From an uncultured bacterium (GTDB taxonomy: Bacteria; Acidobacteriota; Thermoanaerobaculia; Multivoradales; JAHZIX01), in contig CBDUPA010000016.1 of the NCBI GenBank assembly GCA_965368975.1, positions 90,712 to 154,711 of the forward strand: a stretch of DNA of 64,000 bases, read 5' to 3'. Every line of letters starts with the position of its first letter. Position 1 is the first letter of the stretch. A program made the translations under genes and the position numbers. This document shows positions 1-8,533 of this stretch, piece by piece. The notes below the pieces were generated by a model. That model worked only from the letters and a program-made list of their open reading frames with translations. It was not told the origin of the DNA and made no database searches.

Positions 1-1398
1 GGCGAGCCGCTACGCTACAGCTTCCCGCATCGGACCTTCCAGGAGTACCTGGCCGGCTGCTACTTGGTCGCCGAAACGGACGATGCCGTGGGCGCGGTAT
101 ACGAGCGGGCAGCAGCCGGGGACTTCTGGTACCTGGCGGTGCAGCTGGGAGCGGAAGAGTTAGTCTACAGTCGGCGCTTTCCGTCCTTGGTCCAGCGGCT
201 GGCGCTGGGCCTGTACCCGTCGGGTGGCAAGCGAGATGAGTCGGCGCGGCGGGCGAGCCTGTGGGCTACTTGGATGGCGACGCTGCTGGAGGCGCAGCCG
301 GGCGGGGTGGCGAGCAGCGGACCGGAGAGCTGGAAGAGCTTTCTAGGCCGGTGTCGGAAGCGGCTATGTGCGCTGCTGGGCAAGGGGCTGCCTGTGCGGG
401 AGCGAGTGGAGGTGGGACGGTTGTTGGCCAAGCTCGGAGACCCGCGGCCGGAGGTGATGACGGTGGAGGGGATGGAGTTCTGCCGCGTGCCGGCGGGGCC
501 GTTCTGGATGGGCAGTGATGACTCGGACGAGCTTGCCTTCGGTGATGAGAAGCCGATCACACGGCAAGAGGTGAACTACGACTACTGGATGGCGCGCTAC
601 CCAGTGACGCAAGCTCAGTTCCGGCTGTTCGTGGAGGCCGGCGGTTACCGGGACTACCGCTACTGGTCGGAAGCCCAGGCCGCCGAGCGCTGGATGGCGG
701 AGACTGGGTTCGATCGGCGACAGGGGCCGGTCTCGTACGGAGAGCGCTTCGACTTGTCGAATCACCCGGTTGTCGGGGTGAGTTGGTTCGAGGCGTTGGC
801 GTTCACGCGTTGGCTGACGGCGGAGTACCGCGAACGAGGCTGGCTGCCGGATGGTTGGTGCATCTCTCTGCCCTCGGAGTTGGAGTGGGAGAAAGCGGCC
901 CGTGGCGGGGAGCAGGTGCTCGTATCTGCGCTTGGTGAGGGTATTGAAATGGTGCAAGGGTGGATCTGTAAAGCACTTCAGGCCGAGCAGCAAGAGAACC
1001 CGGAACCTCGCCGGTTCGTTCCGTGGACGGGTGGTTTCGAAGCGGATCGGCTGAACTGGAGTGGGCAGCGGCTAGGCGCAACGTCGGCACCGGGGCTGTT
1101 CCCGAAAGGCAGCAGCCCGGTGGGCTGCGAGGAGATGTGCGGCAACGTCTGGGAGTGGACGCGCAGCATCTGGGGCGAGGTCCCTTATCCTACAGCCGCT
1201 GCGGATCGACGAGATAGAGAGGATTTTTCGAATTCAAGCGAGTTCCGCGTCTGGCGTGGCGGTTCGTTCGCCGACTATCGGCAAGGCGTGCGCTGCGCCT
1301 ACCGCTACAGGGGTCCTCCGGACTTCCAGTTCTTCGACGTGGGTTTTCGTGTTGCGCTCCTCCCGTTATCTCTGAACTCTGAAGACTCTGAACTCTGA
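1..1398 (+). CDS. DGR target protein 1 (5'-truncated by window): post-NACHT helical region plus C-terminal FGE-sulfatase/CLec-fold domain with VR1
   Basis: Frame is open from base 1 (GEPLRYSFPHRTFQEYLAGCYLV, matching paralog 3300-6491). FGE-type motifs FWMGS, YPVTQAQF, HPVVGVSW, LPSELEWEKAARG, GNVWEW and RGGSF...GFRV are present. Confidence 0.92.
   Translation, partial: GEPLRYSFPHRTFQEYLAGCYLVAETDDAVGAVYERAAAGDFWYLAVQLGAEELVYSRRFPSLVQRLALGLYPSGGKRDESARRASLWATWMATLLEAQPGGVASSGPESWKSFLGRCRKRLCALLGKGLPVRERVEVGRLLAKLGDPRPEVMTVEGMEFCRVPAGPFWMGSDDSDELAFGDEKPITRQEVNYDYWMARYPVTQAQFRLFVEAGGYRDYRYWSEAQAAERWMAETGFDRRQGPVSYGERFDLSNHPVVGVSWFEALAFTRWLTAEYRERGWLPDGWCISLPSELEWEKAARGGEQVLVSALGEGIEMVQGWICKALQAEQQENPEPRRFVPWTGGFEADRLNWSGQRLGATSAPGLFPKGSSPVGCEEMCGNVWEWTRSIWGEVPYPTAAADRRDREDFSNSSEFRVWRGGSFADYRQGVRCAYRYRGPPDFQFFDVGFRVALLPLSLNSEDSEL
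1240..1362 (+). repeat. DGR variable repeat VR1
   Basis: Ungapped 123-nt match to TR 1875-1997. By manual count, 20 mismatches fall at TR adenines and 4 at non-A positions (2 internal, 2 near the 3' end). Confidence 0.95.
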
Positions 1399-1410
1399 AT
1401 CTCTGATCTG
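1370..1410 (+). repeat. Phased CTCTGA microarray downstream of VR1
   Basis: CTCTGA at 1370, 1377, 1386, 1393 and 1401, plus TCTG at 1407. The same spacing recurs after VR2. Confidence 0.8.
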
Positions 1411-1415
1411 GCAAA

Positions 1416-1450
1416 GGGGGAGCCCGAGGGGGCTTGCCCCCTCGGAGGAT
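1416..1450 (+). promoter_or_regulatory. DGR target-recognition hairpin/cruciform 1
   Basis: Perfect inverted repeat CCGAGGGGGC-TT-GCCCCCTCGG at 1424-1445, inside a 35-nt block identical to 6510-6544. Confidence 0.85.
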
Positions 1451-1470
1451 TGTGGTATCTTCTGCGCGCA

Positions 1471-1824
1471 ATGAGTCGACCGGAGATGCCAATCTTCGTC
1501 CGTAGCTTCGATTTCTTGACTTGGTTATTGCCTCTTACCAATCACTTTCCACGTGCCCACCGGCACACAGTTACGCAGCGTCTCCTGAATGCTGCCTTCG
1601 ATCTACGAGAGTGCCTGGAAGCAGCGAACACGCGGCTGGGTCCTGAGCGGTTAGAGTTTCTGGTAGAGGCTGATGTCGCGTTGGGGCGAGTCAGGACCTA
1701 CTTGAGGCTGGTGGAGAAATGGCAGTGGATATCGCCGGGTCAGTATGAGCACGCGGCGCGAATGGTCGCGGAGATCGGCAGGCTCCTCGGAGGTTGGAAG
1801 AAGACAGTCTTGCCTCGAACTTAG
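1471..1824 (+). CDS. avd: DGR accessory variability determinant Avd (four-helix bundle)
   Basis: About 117 aa, [23 protein letters not shown]...EIGRLLGGW, typical of Avd. Lies between the target and TR/RT; ATG at 1471. Confidence 0.9.
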
Positions 1825-1874
1825 GCGACAGTTCCCGGCGTCTGACGCCGGTTTCTGTGGGGATTCGCCCGAAG

Positions 1875-1997
1875 GAGTTCCGCGTCTGGCGTGGCGGTTC
1901 GTTCGCCAACAATCACAACAACGTGCGCTGCGCCTACCGCAACAGGAATCAACCGAACAACCAGAACAACAACATGGGTTTTCGTGTTGTTCTCCTC
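1875..1997 (+). ncRNA. DGR template repeat (TR)
   Basis: AAC/AAT-rich copy of both target 3' ends (aac aat cac aac aac ... aac aac cag aac aac aac), located between avd and RT. Confidence 0.95.
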
Positions 1998-2131
1998 ACA
2001 TTCTCCGATCGCCGGAACTTCCTGGCGGGTCTCCGACCTTTCAGGCCGAGGCGGAAAATGGCGGGGTGGGTTCCCGGCCGCATCCGGGCAATGTACACAA
2101 CTGAGCCTTGCTCGGATCGGGCATATAGGTA

Positions 2132-3247
2132 GTGGCTCCGCCTCCTGGCTCCGGCCTGAGGCGGGGCGAGTTCGCCTCGGAGTTCGACCACCTTATCGAG
2201 TGGTCGAATCTACGCCTCGCCTACCGCAAGGCCAGCAAGGGCAAGCGCGGCCGGTCCGATGTGGCCGCATTCGAGCTGTGCCTCGAAGATAACCTCTTGG
2301 ACCTGCAAGCCGACCTGCAAGCCAGAACCTATCGCCCCGGCGGCTATCGAAGTTTCTTTATCCACGAGCCAAAACGTCGGCGCATCAGTGCCGCACCGTT
2401 TCGGGATCGCGTAGTGCACCACGCGCTGTGCAACGTGATCGAGGAGCGCTTCGAACGCTCGTTTGTTTCTGAGAGTTTCGCCAACCGAGTTGGCAAGGGT
2501 ACCCATCGAGCGCTCGAACACGCCCAAGACTGTGCGCAGCGATTCCGTTTCGTCGTCCAACTCGACATCCGGCAGTTCTTCCCCAGCATCGATCACGAGA
2601 TTCTGTTCGCGTTGCTGCGGCGGAAGATCGAAGACTCCGCAGTGCTCTGGTTGATCGGGCTGATCCTGGCCTCGGGAGAGGGAGTGCTGGCGGACGAGTA
2701 CGATCAGGTCTTCTTTCCGGGTGATGATCTGTGGGCTGCGTTGCGACCGAGGGGCTTGCCCATTGGCAACTTGACCAGTCAGTTCTGGGCCAATGTCTAC
2801 ATGAGCGGTCTGGATCACAAGATCAAGCGGCAGCTGCGTTGCCGGGGGTATGCACGCTACGTAGACGACCTGCTCTTGTTCTCGAACAGCAAGCGTGAGC
2901 TGTGGATGTGGAAAGGGGCGCTGGGGGCGGAGCTGGAGCGCTTGAGGCTGAAGGTTCATCCCGGCGTGCAACCACGGCCGGTGCCAGAAGGTGTTCCGTT
3001 TTTGGGCTTCGTGATCTATCCGCACAAGCGCCTGCTCAAGCGGCGCAAGGCGGTGCACTACCGGCGACGTTTGCGGGGCAAGCTGAGGGCCTCGACTCAG
3101 GCAGAAGAGCCGTTGCGGCAGAGCGTGCAATCGTGGTTGAATCATTGCCGATACGGGAACACGTTTCATTTGTGTGCGAAGCTCCTGGCGGAGGCTGGAG
3201 TTAGCTGCGAGTTGTGGCCGGAGGAACTGGCCGCCCATGATCTGTGA
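2132..3247 (+). CDS. DGR-class reverse transcriptase
   Basis: Motifs KRRRISAAPFRDRVVHHAL, LDIRQFFPSIDH, GLPIGNLTSQ (DGR-type SQ), YARYVDD and FLGF. 371 aa with no maturase/endonuclease extension. Exact start uncertain. Confidence 0.95.
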   Translation: MAPPPGSGLRRGEFASEFDHLIEWSNLRLAYRKASKGKRGRSDVAAFELCLEDNLLDLQADLQARTYRPGGYRSFFIHEPKRRRISAAPFRDRVVHHALCNVIEERFERSFVSESFANRVGKGTHRALEHAQDCAQRFRFVVQLDIRQFFPSIDHEILFALLRRKIEDSAVLWLIGLILASGEGVLADEYDQVFFPGDDLWAALRPRGLPIGNLTSQFWANVYMSGLDHKIKRQLRCRGYARYVDDLLLFSNSKRELWMWKGALGAELERLRLKVHPGVQPRPVPEGVPFLGFVIYPHKRLLKRRKAVHYRRRLRGKLRASTQAEEPLRQSVQSWLNHCRYGNTFHLCAKLLAEAGVSCELWPEELAAHDL

Positions 3248-3299
3248 GGGTAAGTTGTTCGAATTCGTTTACTAACGATTGAGTCTTCAAGAGGTTCAC

Positions 3300-6200
3300 A
3301 TGACGGACCCTTTTTCCAGCATTCTGATCGGCGCCGCCGGTAACGTCACCGCCGGTCTGATTTCCTCCTCCATCGGTGAAGTCGGGGCGTGGCTCAAGGG
3401 AGATGCGGAGCGCGAAGCGGCGCTGAACCGAGCTACACAGACGGGACTGGCCGCCCTCCTGGTCAAGGCCAAGGGGCAGGCCCCGGACCTGTCCGATCAC
3501 GTCGAGACTGCCTTCCAGCTGCCCTTGCGCCATCCGGACCTGATGGCGGATCTCGGTAAGCTGCTGCAGGTGGCGCTGCGCGGCCGAGAGTTCGACAGCG
3601 AGACCGGAGCACGCCTGTTCAGGGAATACCAGTTCGATCTCGCGGATCTACCGGGCCTCGACCTGCAGGAGTGCTTGCGCGAGCTAGAGGCGGCGTTCAT
3701 CGAGACCGCTGACCGCCAGGAGGTCCTGCAGACCGAACTGCTGACCTTCCACGCCCGCCGGCACTCGCAGTTGCTGGAGGAGGCTGTGGCGCTGCTGCGG
3801 CGCATCGGAACGGCGCCTGCGGGGCTCGCTGGTGCGGCGGACGCAGAGACGACGCGTCAGTTGTACCTCCAGCAACTGGCGAGGCATTGCCAGGCGCTGC
3901 CGTTGGCCGAGCTGGGTGGCAAGGGGCAGGGGTTGACCAAGGTGCGGCTTGGCGATGTCTTCATCGAGCTGAACACCCAGACGCGGATCCCGCGGACGCC
4001 GGAAGAGAAGAAGGTCTTCGAAGAAGAGCACGGCTACCCCTCGGATGATCGCCTACTGACCGCCGAGCAGGCCGCGGACCGGCACCCGCAGCTGGTGCTG
4101 CTGGGCCACCCCGGTAGCGGCAAGAGTTCGTTCATCCGGCATCTGGTGGCACGGCTGGCGGCTCCGGGGCCGGCTGCCCCCGCACCGCCGTGGGCGGAGG
4201 GATTGCTACCGGTCCTGCTCGTCTTGCGCCATCTGGCGCCCCTCCTCGCCCGGCTCGAGCTTGACTCGCTCGACCTGGAGCAACGGCGGCAGCGGCTGGG
4301 CGAGGCGCTGCAGGCGGCCGTGGTCGAGAGCGCCAGGCTGTGCGGTGCGGAAGCCTTCGGGGAGAGGCTGCGCGAGGCTCTGATCAGCGGCCGCTGCCTG
4401 CTGGTCCTGGACGGGCTGGACGAGGTGCCGGCGAAGCTGCGACCGATCGTCCGGCGCGCGGTTGAGGCCGCGCTGCAAACCTACAGCCTCGCCCGCGTGA
4501 TCGTGACCTGTCGGGTCCATTCCTACCAGGGCCGGGCGCAGCTGCCGGACTTCACCGTCCACGAACTGATGCCGCTGACTTCCGGCCAGGTCGAGCGCTT
4601 CGTAGAGGTGTGGTACCACGCCCGCCACCTCCACGGGTATGTCACCGCGGCGGAGGCCGAAGAGCGGGCCGAAGACTTGAAGCGCGGGGCGCGGGGCCTG
4701 CTTCAGCTGGCGGACAATCCGATGCTGCTGACCACGATGGCCCTGGTCCACCAGCAGAATATCCGGCTGCCGCCGCAGAAGGTCTGTCTCTACCACGAAG
4801 CGGTCAAGGTGCTGCTGGTGCGCTGGCAGGAAAGCAAGGGGCTGATCCGGGAACTGGCTCCGCGGCTGGTCGAGATCCTGAACGAGGACGGCCGCATCCG
4901 CCCGGTGCTGGAGCGGCTGGCCTTCGAGATCCACCGCAGGGAGCAGGAGGTGGGTGAGAGCGAGGAGTCCGGCCTGGAATGGGAGCGGATGCTCAAGATT
5001 CTCAAGGCACCGGTGTACCTGGGTTCGACATCCCTGGCGGAGGCCTTCCTGGAGTACGTCGATCAGCAGGCCGGGATTCTGGTGGGTCGCGGTGGGGGAC
5101 CGGACGACGCGTTGCGCTACAGCTTCCCGCATCGCACCTTCCAGGAATACCTGGCTGGCTGTTATCTGGTCAGCCAGTCGGAACCGGTGACGGAGATCTA
5201 TCAGCAAGCGGCGGCCGGCGACTTCTGGTACCTACCCGTGCAGCTGGCGGCGGAAGAACTGCTGCACAACCGCCGAGTTCCTCAATTCCTGCTGCGCATC
5301 GCGGTGGGTCTGTTTCCGGTGGGCGGCAAGCGCGATCAGCCGGCACGACGTGCCAGCCTGTGGGCGGCTTGGATGGCGGCCCTGCTGGAAGCGCAGCCGG
5401 GTGGAGTGACGAGCAGCGGCCCAGAGAGTTGGAAGAGCTTTCTGGCGCGCTGTCGCAAGCGGTTGGTCTCGCTGTTGGGCAAGGGGCTGCCGGTGCGGGA
5501 GCGCGTGGAGGCGGGACGGTTGCTGGCCAAGCTGGGGGATCCGCGGCCGGAGGTGATGACGGTGGACGGGATGGAGTTCTGCCGCGTGCCGGCGGGGCCG
5601 TTCTGGATGGGGAGTGAGGAACAGCCGTCAGTCGCTTACCACAAGGAGACTCCGATCACGCGCCAGGAAGTGGACTACGACTTCTGGATGGCGCGCTATC
5701 CGGTGACGCAGGCGCAGTTCCGGCGGTTCGTGGACGCGGGGGGCTATCGCGAGGCACAGTTGTGGGCGGAGGCGCAAGCCGCTGAGTACTGGACGGCGGA
5801 AGCAGGATTCAAGGGCCGTCTGGGGCCGGTCTTGAAGGGAGAGCCGTTCGACTTGCCGAATCACCCGGCAGTGGGGGTGAGCTGGTTCGAGGCGCTGGCG
5901 TTCACGCGCTGGCTGACGGCACGGGCGTGGGACGAAGGCTGGTTACCGTCCGGGTGGCGGGTGGCGTTGCCGTCCGAGTTGGAGTGGGAGAAGGCGGCGC
6001 GGGGTGGGGAGCAGGTGCCGGTCTCGGTGGTCCGAGCCCGGCTGGAGGTGGTGCGCGAAGGGCTCGGGAGGCTGGATGGCGAGCTGGTAGAGAACCCGGA
6101 ACCGCGTCGCGTCTATCCGTGGGGCGGGGACTTCGATGCGGACACGGTGAATTCTCACGGCCGTCTAGGCGGCACCTCGACGCCAGGGGTGTTTCCACAG

Positions 6201-6491
6201 GGGGCGAGCCCGGTGGGCTGTGAGGAGCTGAGCGGTACGGTGTGGGAGTGGACGAGGAGCAGCTTGGGCGAGTATCCCTATCCCGCCGATCCCGAGGGTC
6301 GCCGAGACATAGAGAATATTTCGAATGTTAGTAAGTCTCGCGTGGTGCGCGGTGGTTCGTGGAACGACAGTCTCACCTACGTGCGCTGCGCCTGCCGCTT
6401 CGGCTGGCGTCCGGGCGTCCAGGACTTCAACTGCGGTTTTCGTGTTGTTCTCCTCCCATCCACTCTGAACTCTGTCTTCTCTGAGCTCTGA
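3300..6491 (+). CDS. DGR target protein 2: N-terminal helical domain - NACHT/STAND NTPase - FGE-sulfatase/CLec domain with VR2 (NLR-like)
   Basis: Walker A GHPGSGKS, Walker B LLVLDGLDEV, sensor VIVTCR, NPMLLT and FPHRTFQEYLA, followed by FGE motifs. ATG at 3300 after GAGG (ORF track starts at 3279). Confidence 0.92.
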   Translation: MTDPFSSILIGAAGNVTAGLISSSIGEVGAWLKGDAEREAALNRATQTGLAALLVKAKGQAPDLSDHVETAFQLPLRHPDLMADLGKLLQVALRGREFDSETGARLFREYQFDLADLPGLDLQECLRELEAAFIETADRQEVLQTELLTFHARRHSQLLEEAVALLRRIGTAPAGLAGAADAETTRQLYLQQLARHCQALPLAELGGKGQGLTKVRLGDVFIELNTQTRIPRTPEEKKVFEEEHGYPSDDRLLTAEQAADRHPQLVLLGHPGSGKSSFIRHLVARLAAPGPAAPAPPWAEGLLPVLLVLRHLAPLLARLELDSLDLEQRRQRLGEALQAAVVESARLCGAEAFGERLREALISGRCLLVLDGLDEVPAKLRPIVRRAVEAALQTYSLARVIVTCRVHSYQGRAQLPDFTVHELMPLTSGQVERFVEVWYHARHLHGYVTAAEAEERAEDLKRGARGLLQLADNPMLLTTMALVHQQNIRLPPQKVCLYHEAVKVLLVRWQESKGLIRELAPRLVEILNEDGRIRPVLERLAFEIHRREQEVGESEESGLEWERMLKILKAPVYLGSTSLAEAFLEYVDQQAGILVGRGGGPDDALRYSFPHRTFQEYLAGCYLVSQSEPVTEIYQQAAAGDFWYLPVQLAAEELLHNRRVPQFLLRIAVGLFPVGGKRDQPARRASLWAAWMAALLEAQPGGVTSSGPESWKSFLARCRKRLVSLLGKGLPVRERVEAGRLLAKLGDPRPEVMTVDGMEFCRVPAGPFWMGSEEQPSVAYHKETPITRQEVDYDFWMARYPVTQAQFRRFVDAGGYREAQLWAEAQAAEYWTAEAGFKGRLGPVLKGEPFDLPNHPAVGVSWFEALAFTRWLTARAWDEGWLPSGWRVALPSELEWEKAARGGEQVPVSVVRARLEVVREGLGRLDGELVENPEPRRVYPWGGDFDADTVNSHGRLGGTSTPGVFPQGASPVGCEELSGTVWEWTRSSLGEYPYPADPEGRRDIENISNVSKSRVVRGGSWNDSLTYVRCACRFGWRPGVQDFNCGFRVVLLPSTLNSVFSEL
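6333..6455 (+). repeat. DGR variable repeat VR2
   Basis: Over 6366-6455 versus TR: about 21 mismatches at TR adenines and 4 non-A. The 5' third (6333-6365) differs at non-A positions. Confidence 0.85.
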
Positions 6492-6504
6492 AGCTCTGAT
6501 CTGA
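6463..6504 (+). repeat. Phased CTCTG microarray downstream of VR2
   Basis: CTCTG at 6463, 6470, 6479, 6486 and 6494 (spacing 7, 9, 7, 8, as after VR1). Confidence 0.8.
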
Positions 6505-6509
6505 GAGGT

Positions 6510-6544
6510 GGGGGAGCCCGAGGGGGCTTGCCCCCTCGGAGGAT
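6510..6544 (+). promoter_or_regulatory. DGR target-recognition hairpin/cruciform 2
   Basis: Identical to 1416-1450; inverted repeat at 6518-6539. Confidence 0.85.
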
Positions 6545-6560
6545 CGTGCCGCCGATCCCC

Positions 6561-6710
6561 GGAGGGCGCAATGCCTTGCGCCCCTACGCCCCACCCTTCC
6601 CCACGAACGTTACGCATCCAGGACGCTCATCCCAGCCACCACTGTGGTCGTGCCATGCGTAGCGTTCGGTCGGGGGGAGGGTCCGTAGGGGCGCAGGGGT
6701 CTGCGCCCTC
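6561..6710. repeat. REP doublet (REPIN-like) between convergent genes
   Basis: Two inverted copies of CGTAGGGGCGCA-N6-TGCGCCCTC (6562-6588 on minus, 6684-6710 on plus), plus an inner inverted pair CGAACGTTACGCAT / ATGCGTAGCGTTCG. Confidence 0.7.
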
Positions 6711-6739
6711 TGCTCTGCTCCCATCCGGCTCTCCGGTCG

Positions 6740-7678
6740 CTATCCAACCACCAACCCGACCCCCAACAACAGGCTCACCAGCAACAACAACCGCGCCGTC
6801 TCCCCCAGCAGCGGATTCAACGCCCCGCCATCCCGCGTCCACACTCTTCTCACCAACACGACCGCCAACGGCAACGTGACCCACGGCAGCAACACCCACC
6901 GCGACGCCAGCCCCATTCCGACCACCACCCCCGGCACCACGTACGCGACGCTGAGCAGCAACAAGTACTCCACCCGCGTCCCCGTCGCACCGAGCCGCAC
7001 CGCCAGCGTGCGTTTCCCGGCTCGGGCATCCGTCTCCCGGTCGCGCAAGTTGTTGACCACCAGGATCGCCGTCGACAGACACCCCACGGTCACCGAGCAC
7101 CACCACGCCAGCTCCGGAATCCGCAGCATCTGCGCGTAGACGGTTCCGCAGACGGCGACGAAGCCGAAGAAAATCATCACGAAGATGTCTCCGAGCCCGT
7201 GATACGCCAGCGGAAAAGGCCCGCCGGTGTAGGCGACAGCGCAGACGACCGCCACCAGGCCGATGACGAAGAGGGGCCAGCCGGCTTCGTAGCTGAGGTA
7301 GAGACCACTGATAAAAGCGAGCGTCAGCGCGAGCGCCAGGCCGGCCCGCATCTGCCGGGGCGTCAGCAGGCCGGCGGCGACGGCGCGGGTGGGGCCGAGA
7401 CGGTCTTCTGTGTCGGCCCCTTTTTCGAAATCGAAGACGTCGTTGGCGAAGTTCGTCCCGATCTGGATCCAGATCGCCACCATCAGGGCGCCGAGAGCGG
7501 GCCCCAGCCGGAAACCGCCGGCGTGCCAGGCGAGGGCGGTGCCGACGAGAACGGGGGCGATGCCGGCCCACAGGGTGGCGGGACGGACAGCCAGGATCCA
7601 AGCTTGGAAGGACCCCGGCGGGGCCACCACTGGCTGTACCGACTCGGAACGGACTTCGCCTTGGACGGTCTGTGTCAT
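6740..7678 (-). CDS. menA: 1,4-dihydroxy-2-naphthoate polyprenyltransferase
   Basis: [36 protein letters not shown] and VVNNLRD motifs; multi-TM. Confidence 0.93.
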
Positions 7679-7693
7679 CGCCGCGCCATCACG

Positions 7694-8533
7694 TCACGGG
7701 TAGCGCTTGAAGGACTTGAAGTTGGGCTTGCGCTTCTCGAGGAACGCGTTCTTGCCTTCCTGGCCTTCTTCGGTCATGTAGTACAGCAGCGTCGCGTTGC
7801 CGGCGAGTTCCTGCAGACCGGCCTGACCGTCGCAATCAGCGTTGAGGGCCGACTTCATGCAGCGGATGGCGAGCGGGCTGCGCTCGAGCATCTCGCGGCA
7901 CCACTGGATGGTTTCGGCTTCCAACTGGTCGAGCGGCACGACGGTGTTGACCATGCCCATGTCGAGGGCTTCCTGGGCGCTGTATTGACGGCACAGGAAC
8001 CAGATCTCGCGCGCCTTCTTCTGGCCGACGTGGCGGGCCAGGAAGGAGGCGCCGTAGCCGCCGTCGAAGCTGCCGACTTTGGGGCCGGTCTGGCCGAAGA
8101 TGGCGTTGTCGGCGGCGATGGTGAGGTCGCACATGACGTGCAGCACGTGACCACCGCCGATGGCGTAGCCGGCGACCATGGCGACGACAGGCTTGGGGAT
8201 GGTGCGGATCTGGCGCTGTAGGTCGAGGACGTTGAGGCGCGGGGTGCCTTCGCCGTCGACGTAGCCGGCGTCGCCGCGGATGCGCTGGTCGCCGCCGGAG
8301 CAGAAGGCCTTGGTGCCGGCGCCGGTGAGCACGACGACGCCGACTTCTTCGTCGTTGCGTGCCAGCTCCATGGCGATGCTCATCTCCTTGACGGTGAGCG
8401 GCCGGAAGGCGTTGTGGATCTCCGGGCGGTTCATGGTGATCTTGGCGATGCCTTCGGGGTCGCCGTCGCTATAGGCCTTTTCGTACAGGATATCGGTGAA
8501 CTCGGCGGCGGAGCGCCATTCGACTTGACTCAT
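7694..8533 (-). CDS. menB: 1,4-dihydroxy-2-naphthoyl-CoA synthase
   Basis: Starts MSQVEW after an AGGAGA RBS. Motifs [44 protein letters not shown]. Confidence 0.96.

What the first reader, a model, noticed from the sequence alone, without database searches (positions are those of the whole stretch)
1370..1410. Phased CTCTG microarray conserved after both VRs
Seen: five CTCTG units with identical 7/9/7/8 spacing follow each VR (1370-1410 and 6463-6504) and span the stop codon. The bases between units differ between copies while the units are kept, and the array is absent after TR. This points to nucleotide-level selection. Inference: a non-canonical IMH/target-recognition element (priming site or protein-binding array) unlike the GC-rich IMH of the Bordetella phage DGR.
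Basis: partly seen in the sequence, partly recalled or inferred. Interest (0 to 1): 0.72.

Follow-up and report, generated by a model that had tools for sequence, protein, structure and literature searches.

The report
Phased CTCTG repeats marking DGR targets
Right after each of the two hypermutated gene ends of this diversity-generating retroelement lies a row of five evenly phased CTCTG words, kept in related retroelements of several phyla but never beside the template copy, so it probably helps mark which DNA copy receives the mutations.

Summary
Five CTCTG units with 7/9/7/8 spacing lie at 1370-1405 and 6463-6498, across the stop codons. These are the only such arrays, and the only two variable repeats (VRs), in the 7.1-Mb genome.

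The array is not peculiar to this locus. In DGRs found through their reverse transcriptase (RT), 27 of 67 VR flanks carry at least 3 CTCTG, against 0 of 66 template (TR) flanks. In the window's RT clade, 20 of 21 loci with a VR have it, in hosts of six phyla. The alternating 7/(8-9)/7/(8-9) phasing is conserved while the spacers vary. Sister clades keep the phasing with other units (TTCTG, TTTACC-like).

A pattern-first metagenome scan found at least 51 of 73 exact arrays just after a Gly-Phe-Arg VR end.

The array is not coding, not a terminator, not a slippage repeat, and not complementary to the DGR RNA.

Most likely it is a lineage-specific recipient-site signal. It lies between an IMH-like segment, which is also present, and the known hairpin, and is probably read by RT-Avd. 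That function is untested.

I found no description of it in the literature I could search. Earlier notes of this scan report similar arrays in other DGR lineages.

The parts
1..1398 (+). 3' part of DGR target gene 1, cut by the window start. It has a C-terminal FGE-sulfatase/C-type-lectin-like domain.
   Evidence: Pfam PF03781, E 5.7e-47. The open frame is 1075 aa in the genome.
1240..1369 (+). VR1, the variable repeat, including the IMH-like imperfect end GGGTTTTCGTGTTGCGCTCCTCCCGTTAT.
   Evidence: 79% identical to the TR; 22 of 27 mismatches are at TR adenines.
1370..1405 (+). CTCTG array 1: five units at 1370, 1377, 1386, 1393 and 1401 (spacing 7/9/7/8). The stop codon TGA 1396-1398 lies inside unit 4.
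1424..1445 (+). GC-rich hairpin 1: 9-bp stem and 4-nt loop CTTG in the predicted fold. No T run follows.
1471..1824 (+). avd, the accessory variability determinant
   Evidence: Pfam bAvd PF22296, E 1.2e-18
1875..2005 (+). TR, the template repeat. Its 3' flank has no CTCTG array.
   Evidence: In the own genome the TR matches only itself and the two VRs.
2132..3247 (+). DGR reverse transcriptase
   Evidence: Pfam RVT_1, E 5.9e-15; 71 related loci
3279..6491 (+). DGR target gene 2: a NACHT/STAND NTPase with a C-terminal FGE-type domain. The start codon is uncertain (TTG 3279 or ATG 3300).
6333..6462 (+). VR2. It is more diverged from the TR than VR1: 22 of 37 mismatches are at TR adenines.
6463..6498 (+). 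CTCTG array 2: five units at 6463, 6470, 6479, 6486 and 6494 (spacing 7/9/7/8). The stop codon TGA 6489-6491 lies inside unit 4.
6518..6539 (+). GC-rich hairpin 2, identical in sequence to hairpin 1

Best explanation
The CTCTG array is a conserved, strand-specific, cis-acting DNA element of the recipient (VR) site in one large lineage of diversity-generating retroelements.

In this lineage the target end is built from four modules:
1. The variable part of the VR.
2. An IMH-like segment of about 30 nt that still pairs imperfectly with the TR end.
3. After 0-18 nt, four to eight (most often five) CTCTG units in a fixed alternating phase. The layout is CTCTG-N2-CTCTG, N3-4, CTCTG-N2-CTCTG, N3-4, CTCTG, that is, pairs of units with a 15-16-nt period.
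4. In about half of the cases, a GC-rich hairpin.

I infer that the array is the part of the signal that tells the retrohoming machinery which copy is the recipient (VR) and which the donor (TR). I also infer that it is read by a DGR-encoded component, the RT-Avd ribonucleoprotein, docking beside the hairpin so that the mutagenised cDNA replaces the VR.

Shown here: existence, conservation, phasing, strand specificity, exclusive linkage to VRs, and a unit that follows the RT lineage.
For: 1. One-to-one link with VRs in the own genome. There are two VRs and two arrays, and no array after the other 25 FGE-domain matches.

2. RT-first sample (71 loci; 67 VR flanks and 66 TR flanks usable). At least 3 CTCTG within 70 nt occur in 27 of 67 VR flanks. 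Of the TR flanks, 65 of 66 have none and one has a single copy. CAGAG on the same strand is absent in 63 of 67 VR flanks.

3. Phasing. Among 85 unit-to-unit steps, the spacing is 7 (46), 8 (19), 9 (16), 6 (2) and 10 (2), in alternating order. A five-unit 7/(8-9)/7/(8-9) model matches 22.9 of 25 positions on average in 28 VR flanks. TR flanks score 12.1 and shuffles 13.2, with a maximum of 17.

4. RT tree. The window sits in a clade of 26 rows (SH-aLRT 97). It holds 20 CTCTG loci, 1 near-variant (L043) and 5 without a VR in the fetched DNA. By record titles the hosts are Chloroflexota, Nitrospirota, Acidobacteriota, Pseudomonadota, Bacteroidota and Planctomycetota. Sister clades use TTCTG-like units, and a deeper clade uses TTTACC/CTTTT-like units. 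So the unit follows the RT lineage, not the host phylum.

5. Motif-agnostic check. Self-similarity at lag 7-9 is 0.45-0.48 in VR flanks against 0.31-0.33 in TR flanks, in all three classes. There is no difference at other lags.

6. Pattern-first scan of metagenomes. Of 73 exact five-unit arrays with at least 50 nt upstream, 51 have Gly-Phe-Arg codons (GGNTTYCG) within 70 nt upstream. About 6 more have variant codons, judged by eye.

7. Phylum scan. In 401 genomes of the own phylum, a four-unit pattern hits only the own genome and G256. In G256 it again follows a VR-like end.

8. Not coding. The stop codon lies inside the array in 51 of 81 arrays, before it in 27 and after it in 3. Tails after GFR are 7-34 aa long.

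9. Context in print. In BPP-1, IMH plus stem-loop define the recipient, and how the cDNA homes 'remains incompletely understood' (passages of PMC12875486). [quoted passage not shown]
Against: - No functional test exists; position and conservation do not prove a role in homing.
Avd is present in all unit classes (56 of 59 loci with a VR), so its presence does not discriminate.
- The unit number is 4-10 (mode 5: 9 of 24 arrays), so it does not fit the Avd pentamer neatly.
- The cassette, array included, moves as one piece. 'Unit follows RT lineage' is therefore partly inheritance, and related loci are not independent.
- Host assignments of short MAG contigs may be wrong.
- Distant phage DGRs mostly lack the signal. 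Only 1 of 10 VR flanks (FP_Lagaffe) is clearly phased, and BPP-1 is not. The element is lineage-limited, not universal.
- G256 keeps two arrays after VR-like ends, although no TR or close RT was found in that assembly.
Confidence: 0.6

Rival explanations
1. The array is read by host replication or recombination machinery rather than by the DGR's own proteins. It could be a site that positions a lagging-strand gap, a primase start or a fork pause at the 3' end of the VR, so that the cDNA can anneal like an Okazaki fragment.
For: Naorem et al. propose an 'Okazaki-like fragment' and 'replication pausing' at the VR end (Discussion passage of PMC5703328). ExoI, a host single-strand exonuclease, limits BPP-1 homing in E. 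coli (abstract passage of PMC12875486). The array by itself is essentially unstructured as single-stranded DNA (-0.7 and -5.8 kcal/mol, z 0.30 and -0.99). CTG as a primase recognition triplet in some bacteria is recalled by me, not checked.
Against: The unit differs between DGR lineages within the same host phyla and stays the same across six phyla. That is not expected for a host-specific reader. By its record titles, one MAG carries two DGRs with different unit types (L013 TTCTG-like, L045 CTCTG). A fixed 7/(8-9) pairwise phase is not needed for a pause or for primase sites.
Confidence: 0.15
2. The array works in the target gene's mRNA. It could be a 3'-end element for stability or processing, or an all-frame stop device that ends translation whatever the frame.
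For: TGA is the stop in 69 of 81 target genes, usually the TGA of a CTCTGA unit at +3, +10 or +26 of the array. With 7/8/9 steps the TGAs fall in all three frames in both window copies (my reading).
Against: The base after CTCTG is A in only 62 of 113 units, so TGA is not the conserved part. In 27 of 81 arrays the stop lies before the array. A stop device would not need 4-8 units in a fixed phase. No Rfam family matches, and the hairpins are not terminator-like. No RNA run holding the locus was listed, so expression could not be examined.
Confidence: 0.1
3. The array guides the cDNA-RNA hybrid by base pairing with the DGR RNA. This is the model Naorem et al. proposed for the BPP-1 IMH and the spacer RNA 'primer'.
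For: Discussion passage of PMC5703328: the RNA primer pairs more extensively with the VR IMH than with the TR IMH*.
Against: There is no CAGAG in window 1450-2132. CAGAG is absent from the 190 nt around and after the TR end in 24 of 27 CTCTG-class loci. Wobble-tolerant YRGRG is not enriched (1.81 against 2.29 in shuffles). Predicted duplex energy between that RNA and the array is no better than with shuffled arrays (mean z 0.01). That duplex model is crude.
Confidence: 0.05
4. The array is a neutral by-product: a slippage microsatellite, or a scar left by repeated imprecise cDNA integration.
For: The unit number varies from 4 to 10. L029 has a run of seven-base steps that looks like true tandem expansion. 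The pattern-first scan also found genuine tandem repeats of CTCTGCG type unrelated to VRs.
Against: In VR-linked arrays the spacers differ while the units and the 7/(8-9) alternation are kept, both between paralogues (spacers differ at 16 of 54 positions in six pairs) and across phyla. By my arithmetic, with the window's spacer divergence of 6/11, 25 unit positions would all stay unchanged with probability about 3e-9. Tandem duplication would copy the spacers too.
Confidence: 0.05

Closest known systems
Bordetella phage BPP-1 DGR target site: (GC)14, 21-bp IMH and the downstream hairpin/cruciform (Guo et al. 2011, PMC3240598, passages read; Doulatov et al. 2004, recalled)
   Same: It lies at the 3' end of the VR. 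It distinguishes the VR from the TR. It is followed by a GC-rich hairpin with a 4-nt loop. In both cases, what differs from the TR lies between the mutagenised part and the hairpin.
   Different: The BPP-1 IMH has a near-identical IMH* in the TR and no phased repeat: lag 7-9 self-similarity is 0.26 (sequences). Here the array has no TR counterpart at all and is a regular repeat. The hairpin loop is CTTG, not GRNA. It starts 19 nt after the last unit and about 54 nt after the end of TR homology, beyond the 4-34 bp given by Guo et al..
IMH/IMH* point differences in Nanoarchaeota DGRs: IMH TGGGGT against IMH* TGGAAT (Paul et al. 2015, PMC4372165, passage)
   Same: It is a lineage-fixed base difference between the VR and TR ends. 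Here the VR has C where the TR has A (..CCACA against ..CCCCA) in 20 of 20 CTCTG-class and 12 of 12 TTCTG-class pairs that have such a mismatch.
   Different: That is a point difference inside the homologous segment. The CTCTG array is a separate repeat module downstream of it.
Iteron-like arrays: direct repeats with conserved units, free spacers and fixed phase that bind a dedicated protein at plasmid origins (recalled general knowledge)
   Same: The formal anatomy is the same: short conserved units, variable spacers, fixed spacing and a single orientation.
   Different: The units are only 5 nt long with a 7-9 nt period, much shorter than iterons. The context is a retroelement target, not an origin. 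No binding protein is known.
Repeat arrays after VRs in other DGR lineages, noted earlier in this scan (e1-1551124, e1-2466417, e1-802752, e1-3573077). These are unchecked AI notes.
   Same: They are short phased repeats of about 8 bases directly after VRs, near a hairpin, and were reported as not found in the literature.
   Different: They have other units (for example CTTTG in Patescibacteria) and sit in other RT lineages. I did not examine those loci.

Membership tests
DGR target (recipient) site as defined in BPP-1 | Lies at the 3' end of a VR whose differences from a TR fall at TR adenines, next to an RT and Avd | tested here: met
   VR1: 22 of 27 mismatches at TR adenines. VR2: 22 of 37. 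RT and bAvd by Pfam.
DGR target (recipient) site as defined in BPP-1 | IMH: a GC-rich 14-mer plus a 21-bp segment with a near-identical IMH* at the TR end | tested here: not met
   For the array itself there is no counterpart after the TR and it is not GC-rich. A separate IMH/IMH*-like imperfect repeat does exist just upstream of the array, so the locus as a whole has one.
DGR target (recipient) site as defined in BPP-1 | GC-rich hairpin with 7-10 bp stem and 4-nt GRNA loop, 4-34 bp after the VR (Guo 2011) | tested here: inconclusive
   Stem of 9-10 bp and 4-nt loop: met. The loop is CTTG, not GRNA, and the distance from the homology end is about 54 nt. In relatives a perfect stem of at least 7 bp lies within 110 nt in 37 of 75 arrays, against 8 of 75 shuffles.
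DGR target (recipient) site as defined in BPP-1 | Needed for retrohoming and sets its direction | not testable with these tools
   This needs a homing assay.
Slippage microsatellite / tandem repeat | Head-to-tail copies in which the whole period, spacers included, is repeated | tested here: not met
   Spacers differ within and between arrays while the units are kept. True tandem repeats found by the same pattern look different: they have identical spacers and no VR.
Conserved C-terminal peptide (coding constraint) | Fixed reading frame and fixed position of the stop relative to the motif | tested here: not met
   The stop lies before the array in 27, inside it in 51 and after it in 3 of 81 arrays. 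Tails are 7-34 aa.
Intrinsic transcription terminator | GC hairpin followed by a T run | tested here: not met
   The terminator scan of 1200-7000 lists 6 sites, none at 1424-1445 or 6518-6539. The hairpin is followed by AGGATTGTGG / AGGATCGTGC.
Known RNA family | Match to an Rfam covariance model | tested here: not met
   0 matches at E up to 1 in window 1-8000.

The most novel reading that the evidence does not exclude
Phased 7-9-nt repeat arrays are a general 'address label' of a major DGR family. Each RT/Avd lineage reads its own short unit (CTCTG, TTCTG, TTTACC-like and, from earlier scan notes, CTTTG), laid out as pairs with a 15-16-nt period next to the VR. An oligomeric DGR protein, the pentameric Avd barrel with RT, would dock on this label to hand the cDNA to the recipient copy. 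This would be the missing recipient-recognition step of retrohoming. It would make DGR targeting portable by transplanting label plus IMH-like segment.
Probability: 0.3. Interest if true: 0.88.

Novelty: new variant of a known kind. Interest (0 to 1): 0.74.

Why it matters
How the mutagenised cDNA of a DGR finds and replaces the VR, and how the VR is told from the TR, is still open. A 2026 paper on the BPP-1 system says the process 'remains incompletely understood' (passage of PMC12875486).

All mechanistic work rests on one phage element whose IMH has no obvious internal structure. Here a large natural lineage shows a simple, regular, strongly conserved signal at exactly that place. This lineage diversifies NACHT/STAND-lectin 'sensor' proteins in Chloroflexota and other phyla.

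The signal gives a concrete handle for experiments:
- Units, spacing and orientation can each be mutated separately.
- Binding by Avd and RT can be tested directly.
- The label could be used to recognise true DGR targets, including remote or orphan ones, in genome annotation.
- It could help retarget DGRs of this lineage for directed evolution.

Tried and rejected
1. Long-range stem enclosing the array. The folds of both window flanks pair CTCCTCCC (VR end) with GGGGGAG (before the hairpin). Across 76 VR-linked arrays the longest complementarity between the 22 nt upstream and the 45 nt downstream averages 4.62, no higher than with partners from other loci (4.72) or shuffled partners (4.67). 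Rejected.

2. Pairing of the array with the RNA downstream of the TR. Mean z is 0.01 and CAGAG is absent in 24 of 27 loci. Rejected, with a crude duplex model.

3. Avd presence as a discriminator. Avd is present in all unit classes, so this is uninformative.

4. 'Five units for five Avd subunits'. The unit number is 4-10. Kept only as a weak speculation.

5. BPP-1 IMH as a degenerate array. By eye, three TGA at 8/7 spacing in the IMH are all changed in IMH*. But there is no lag 7-9 signal (0.26) and n = 1. Not used as evidence.

6. Generality in distant phage DGRs. Of 10 VR flanks from 9 phage records, only FP_Lagaffe is clearly phased (0.62 against 0.16 at other lags). VHML and VP585 show repeats only by eye.

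7. Sequencing runs. No RNA holder was listed. Four DNA runs of one study hold about a tenth of the words, as contigs of a roughly 88-90% relative. Contigs cannot show molecule ends. No contig covers 1208-1383.

8. Unit-against-spacer test in paralogue pairs. The zero unit differences are partly built in, because both copies were found by an exact-unit pattern. The script also stopped with an error after six of nine pairs. Only the spacer figure (16 of 54) is used.

9. Papers not held. PMC3570691 (Avd structure) and PMC11995886. The pentamer statement is taken from the introduction passage of PMC6182149.

10. Supplements. None were opened. The TR-VR alignments in the supplement of PMC5758913 may show such flanks.
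Full report
WHAT IS THERE.
The first 6.5 kb of the window hold a complete diversity-generating retroelement (DGR). Its parts, in order, are:
- target gene 1, cut by the window start, with an FGE-sulfatase/lectin-type C-terminal domain;
- avd (bAvd family), 1471-1824;
- the template repeat TR, 1875-2005;
- the reverse transcriptase (RT), 2132-3247;
- target gene 2, a NACHT/STAND NTPase with the same C-terminal domain, ending at 6491.
VR1 (1240-1369) and VR2 (6333-6462) match the TR. Their mismatches lie mostly at TR adenines: 22 of 27 for VR1 and 22 of 37 for VR2.

Five CTCTG units start at 1370, 1377, 1386, 1393 and 1401, and at 6463, 6470, 6479, 6486 and 6494. Both arrays have spacing 7/9/7/8.
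- The TGA stop codons (1396-1398, 6489-6491) are part of unit 4.
- Six of the 11 spacer bases differ between the copies, and none of the 25 unit bases does.
- The 3-unit pattern is expected 0.00 times in shuffles of the window.
- In the whole 7.1-Mb genome it occurs only at these two sites, on this strand only.
- The genome has 28 FGE-domain matches: the two targets, the TR remnant and 25 others.
- The TR matches only the two VRs.
So there are two VRs, two arrays and nothing elsewhere. No array follows the TR. An identical GC hairpin follows each array, at 1424-1445 and 6518-6539. It has no T run and is not among the six terminator-like sites of the scan.

IT IS A CONSERVED ELEMENT OF A DGR LINEAGE.
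I fetched 71 loci encoding relatives of the RT (37-71% identity) from one genome per species. I found TR/VR pairs by self-comparison, keeping pairs with at least 75% of mismatches at adenines of one partner (68 pairs). One spurious reverse reading was dropped. The window's VR2 fails the 75% filter and was added by hand where stated.
- In the 70 nt after the end of TR-VR homology, 27 of 67 VR flanks have at least 3 CTCTG. Of the TR flanks, 65 of 66 have none and one has a single copy.
- The complement CAGAG is absent from 63 of 67 VR flanks, so the element is strand-specific.
- In VRs that lie on the strand opposite to the RT (L016, L021, L029), the array still follows the VR in the VR's own orientation.

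THE PHASE IS CONSERVED, NOT ONLY THE WORD.
- Among 85 unit-to-unit steps in 28 arrays, the spacing is 7 (46 times), 8 (19), 9 (16), 6 (2) and 10 (2), in alternating order: 7/9/7/8, 7/8/7/8, 7/9/7/9.
- A five-unit model 7/(8|9)/7/(8|9) matches on average 22.9 of 25 unit positions in the 28 CTCTG-class VR flanks. TR flanks score 12.1 and shuffled flanks 13.2, with a maximum of 17.
- Loci with fewer exact units carry one-mismatch units (CGCTG, CGATG) in the same register.
- Allowing one mismatch, arrays hold 4 to 10 units in the RT-first sample. The counts are 4 units in 5 arrays, 5 in 9, 6 in 5, 7 in 2, 8 in 2 and 10 in 1, out of 24.
- The base after CTCTG is A 62, G 25, T 23 and C 3, of 113 units.
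The real repeat is thus a pair, CTCTG-N2-CTCTG, recurring every 15-16 nt.

THE UNIT FOLLOWS THE RT LINEAGE.
I built a quick maximum-likelihood tree of 59 RTs. Thirteen of the 71 loci were left out because the RT match was truncated or interrupted.
- The tree puts the window in a clade of 26 rows (SH-aLRT 97). It holds 20 CTCTG loci, one near-variant (L043, with TCTGG units) and 5 with no VR in the fetched DNA.
- By record titles, the hosts belong to Chloroflexota, Nitrospirota, Acidobacteriota, Pseudomonadota, Bacteroidota and Planctomycetota.
- Sister clades carry TTCTG/NNCTG units in the same 7-8 phase.
- A deeper clade of 14 rows (Bacteroidota, Planctomycetota) carries TTTACC/CTTTT-like units.
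- A test that assumes no motif agrees. Self-similarity at lag 7-9 in the first 50 nt is 0.483 for VR against 0.328 for TR (CTCTG class, n=27). It is 0.478 against 0.314 (TTCTG class, n=14) and 0.450 against 0.315 (other, n=25). Lags 4, 5 and 11-13 show no difference.
Related loci are not independent, so the p-values printed there overstate the case. MAG host labels on short contigs may be wrong.

SPECIFICITY, TESTED FROM THE PATTERN SIDE.
- A four-unit pattern in 401 genomes of the own phylum hits only the own genome and G256. The reversed control pattern hits two genomes.
- The G256 hit follows a GVGFRIVVSPF gene end.
- A second, slightly degenerate array follows a paralogous end 2.9 kb away.
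- No TR, and no RT closer than 30% identity, was found in that assembly.
- Of the 73 with at least 50 nt upstream, 51 have GGNTTYCG (Gly-Phe-Arg) within 70 nt upstream, most often 29 nt before the array.
- About 6 more have variant codons, judged by eye (L098, L099, L104, L119, L132, L147).
- Most of the remainder are genuine tandem repeats with identical spacers (CTCTGCG type) or low-complexity runs.
- Spacing among the 80: 7/9/7/8 in 40, 7/8/7/8 in 27, 7/9/7/9 in 10 and 7/8/7/9 in 3.

WHAT IT IS NOT.
- Not a coding motif. In 81 VR-linked arrays the stop lies inside the array in 51, before it in 27 and after it in 3. The tails after Gly-Phe-Arg are 7-34 residues long. The gene simply reads into the array until a TGA comes into frame: TGA is the stop in 69 of 81.
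- Not a known RNA family and not a terminator.
- Not a structure of its own. As single-stranded DNA the arrays fold at -0.7 and -5.8 kcal/mol, no better than shuffles.
- Not enclosed by a conserved stem. The long-range stem predicted around the array is not conserved.
- Not complementary to the RNA after the TR. The base-pairing model proposed for the BPP-1 IMH (PMC5703328, Discussion passage) therefore finds no support here.

CONTEXT WITHIN THE TARGET SITE.
Upstream of the array lies an IMH/IMH*-type imperfect repeat. Within the last 16 nt of homology, the first TR-adenine mismatch is always C in the VR: 20 of 20 CTCTG-class pairs (7 further pairs have no such mismatch) and 12 of 12 TTCTG-class pairs (2 without). 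Random mutagenesis would give C about one time in three. So this is either a fixed recipient mark or selection for the Pro codon. Downstream, a perfect stem of at least 7 bp lies within 110 nt in 37 of 75 arrays, against 8 of 75 shuffles. It is often GGGGAG(T/C)CC(A/C)GAGGGGG-loop-CCCCCTC(T/G)GG. The hairpin is therefore frequent but less constant than the array. Wu et al. likewise report high-confidence inverted repeats in 34% of DGRs (PMC5758913).

MECHANISM.
The most likely reading (0.6) is a lineage-specific recipient-site signal read by the DGR's own RT-Avd ribonucleoprotein. The reasons are:
- its exclusive link to VRs;
- its position between the IMH-like segment and the hairpin;
- its single orientation;
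- its conserved geometry with free spacers, which is the signature of a protein-binding array;
- a unit that changes with the RT lineage rather than with the host.
[quoted passage not shown] The modal five units are suggestive, but the range of 4-10 argues against a strict match. The rival readings are a host replication or recombination reader, an mRNA-level role, RNA guiding and a neutral repeat. Each is scored in its own section.

COMPARISON WITH THE KNOWN.
The BPP-1 target site has (GC)14, a 21-bp IMH with a near-identical IMH*, and a hairpin with a GRNA loop 4-34 bp from the VR (PMC3240598, passages; sequences). The window shares the logic and the hairpin class. It adds a repeat module with no TR counterpart. 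BPP-1 itself shows no lag 7-9 signal (0.26), and of 10 VR flanks from 9 phage records only Faecalibacterium phage FP_Lagaffe has a clear array (AATCTGG-like, period 8). So this is a feature of a large lineage, not of all DGRs.

LITERATURE.
- Searches for DGR with IMH/hairpin/target recognition, with 'CTCTG' (4 papers, none about DGR targets by title), with 'downstream of VR' and related phrases, with NACHT/hypermutation and with repeat vocabulary (no DGR paper among the 15 listed) gave no description of such arrays.
- I read only passages returned by term searches. The papers were PMC3240598, PMC12875486, PMC5758913, PMC8144416, PMC10907252, PMC4372165, PMC5703328, PMC6182149 and preprint 10.1101/2025.03.24.644984. 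For PMC11661182 the terms had no occurrence.
- No supplement was opened, and subscription-only papers are not covered. 'Not described' therefore means not found in these searches.
- Earlier notes of this scan report short repeat arrays after VRs in other DGR lineages (e1-1551124, e1-2466417, e1-802752, e1-3573077), also as undescribed. They are unchecked AI notes. I did not examine those loci, but the TTCTG and TTTACC-type arrays seen here point the same way.

VERDICT.
The element is a new, well-conserved component of a known kind of site, the DGR recipient site. Its function is inferred, not shown.

Noticed in passing
window 1352-1362 and 6445-6455 against TR 1987-1997; L007-L077 pairs: Near the end of TR-VR homology the TR has an adenine where every VR has C (TR ..CCACA.., VR ..CCCCA..; window CTCACA against CTCCCG/CTCCCA). 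This holds in 20 of 20 CTCTG-class and 12 of 12 TTCTG-class pairs with such a mismatch. It is either a fixed IMH/IMH* discriminator or strong selection for the Pro codon.
   Followed up: partly
L080 1470-1530 and L220 1600-1670 (genome G256, contig C138): Two paralogous VR-like gene ends, 2.9 kb apart, are each followed by a CTCTG array, one exact and one degenerate. No TR and no RT closer than 30% identity were found in that assembly. They may be orphan or remote targets that keep the label.
   Followed up: partly
L096, L106, L110, L117, L138, L142, L148 (metagenome stretches): This is a different repeat family: long tandem runs of CTCTGCG/CTCTGCGC with identical spacers. L138 also has the complement CAGAGGCG on the other side. 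They are not next to VR-like gene ends.
   Followed up: no
window 1424-1445 and many loci (e.g. L024, L038, L097, L133, L147, L153): The hairpin after the array is conserved in sequence, not only as a GC stem: GGGGAG(T/C)CC(A/C)GAGGGGG-loop-CCCCCTC(T/G)GG. In some loci its 3' arm holds a CTCTG and its 5' arm a CAGAG (5 of 37 perfect stems).
   Followed up: partly
window 1208-1383, laid contigs of runs X1-X4: Contigs of a roughly 88-90% relative in four runs of one study stop on both sides of VR1, and none covers it. The loose end before 1386 shows the relative's array with the same phase but another spacer. Assembly breaks at a VR would fit population hypervariability, but contigs cannot prove it.
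   Followed up: no
L214 3116-3165 (Faecalibacterium phage FP_Lagaffe): The VR is followed by AATCCGG TAATCTGG CAATCTGA AAATCTGG (period 8) and then a hairpin GAGGGTGGC...GCCACCCTC. This is a phased array in a distant phage DGR.
   Followed up: partly
window 1835-1851: A hairpin CCGGCGTCTGACGCCGG followed by TTTCTG lies between avd and the TR. The scan listed it as terminator-like.
   Followed up: no
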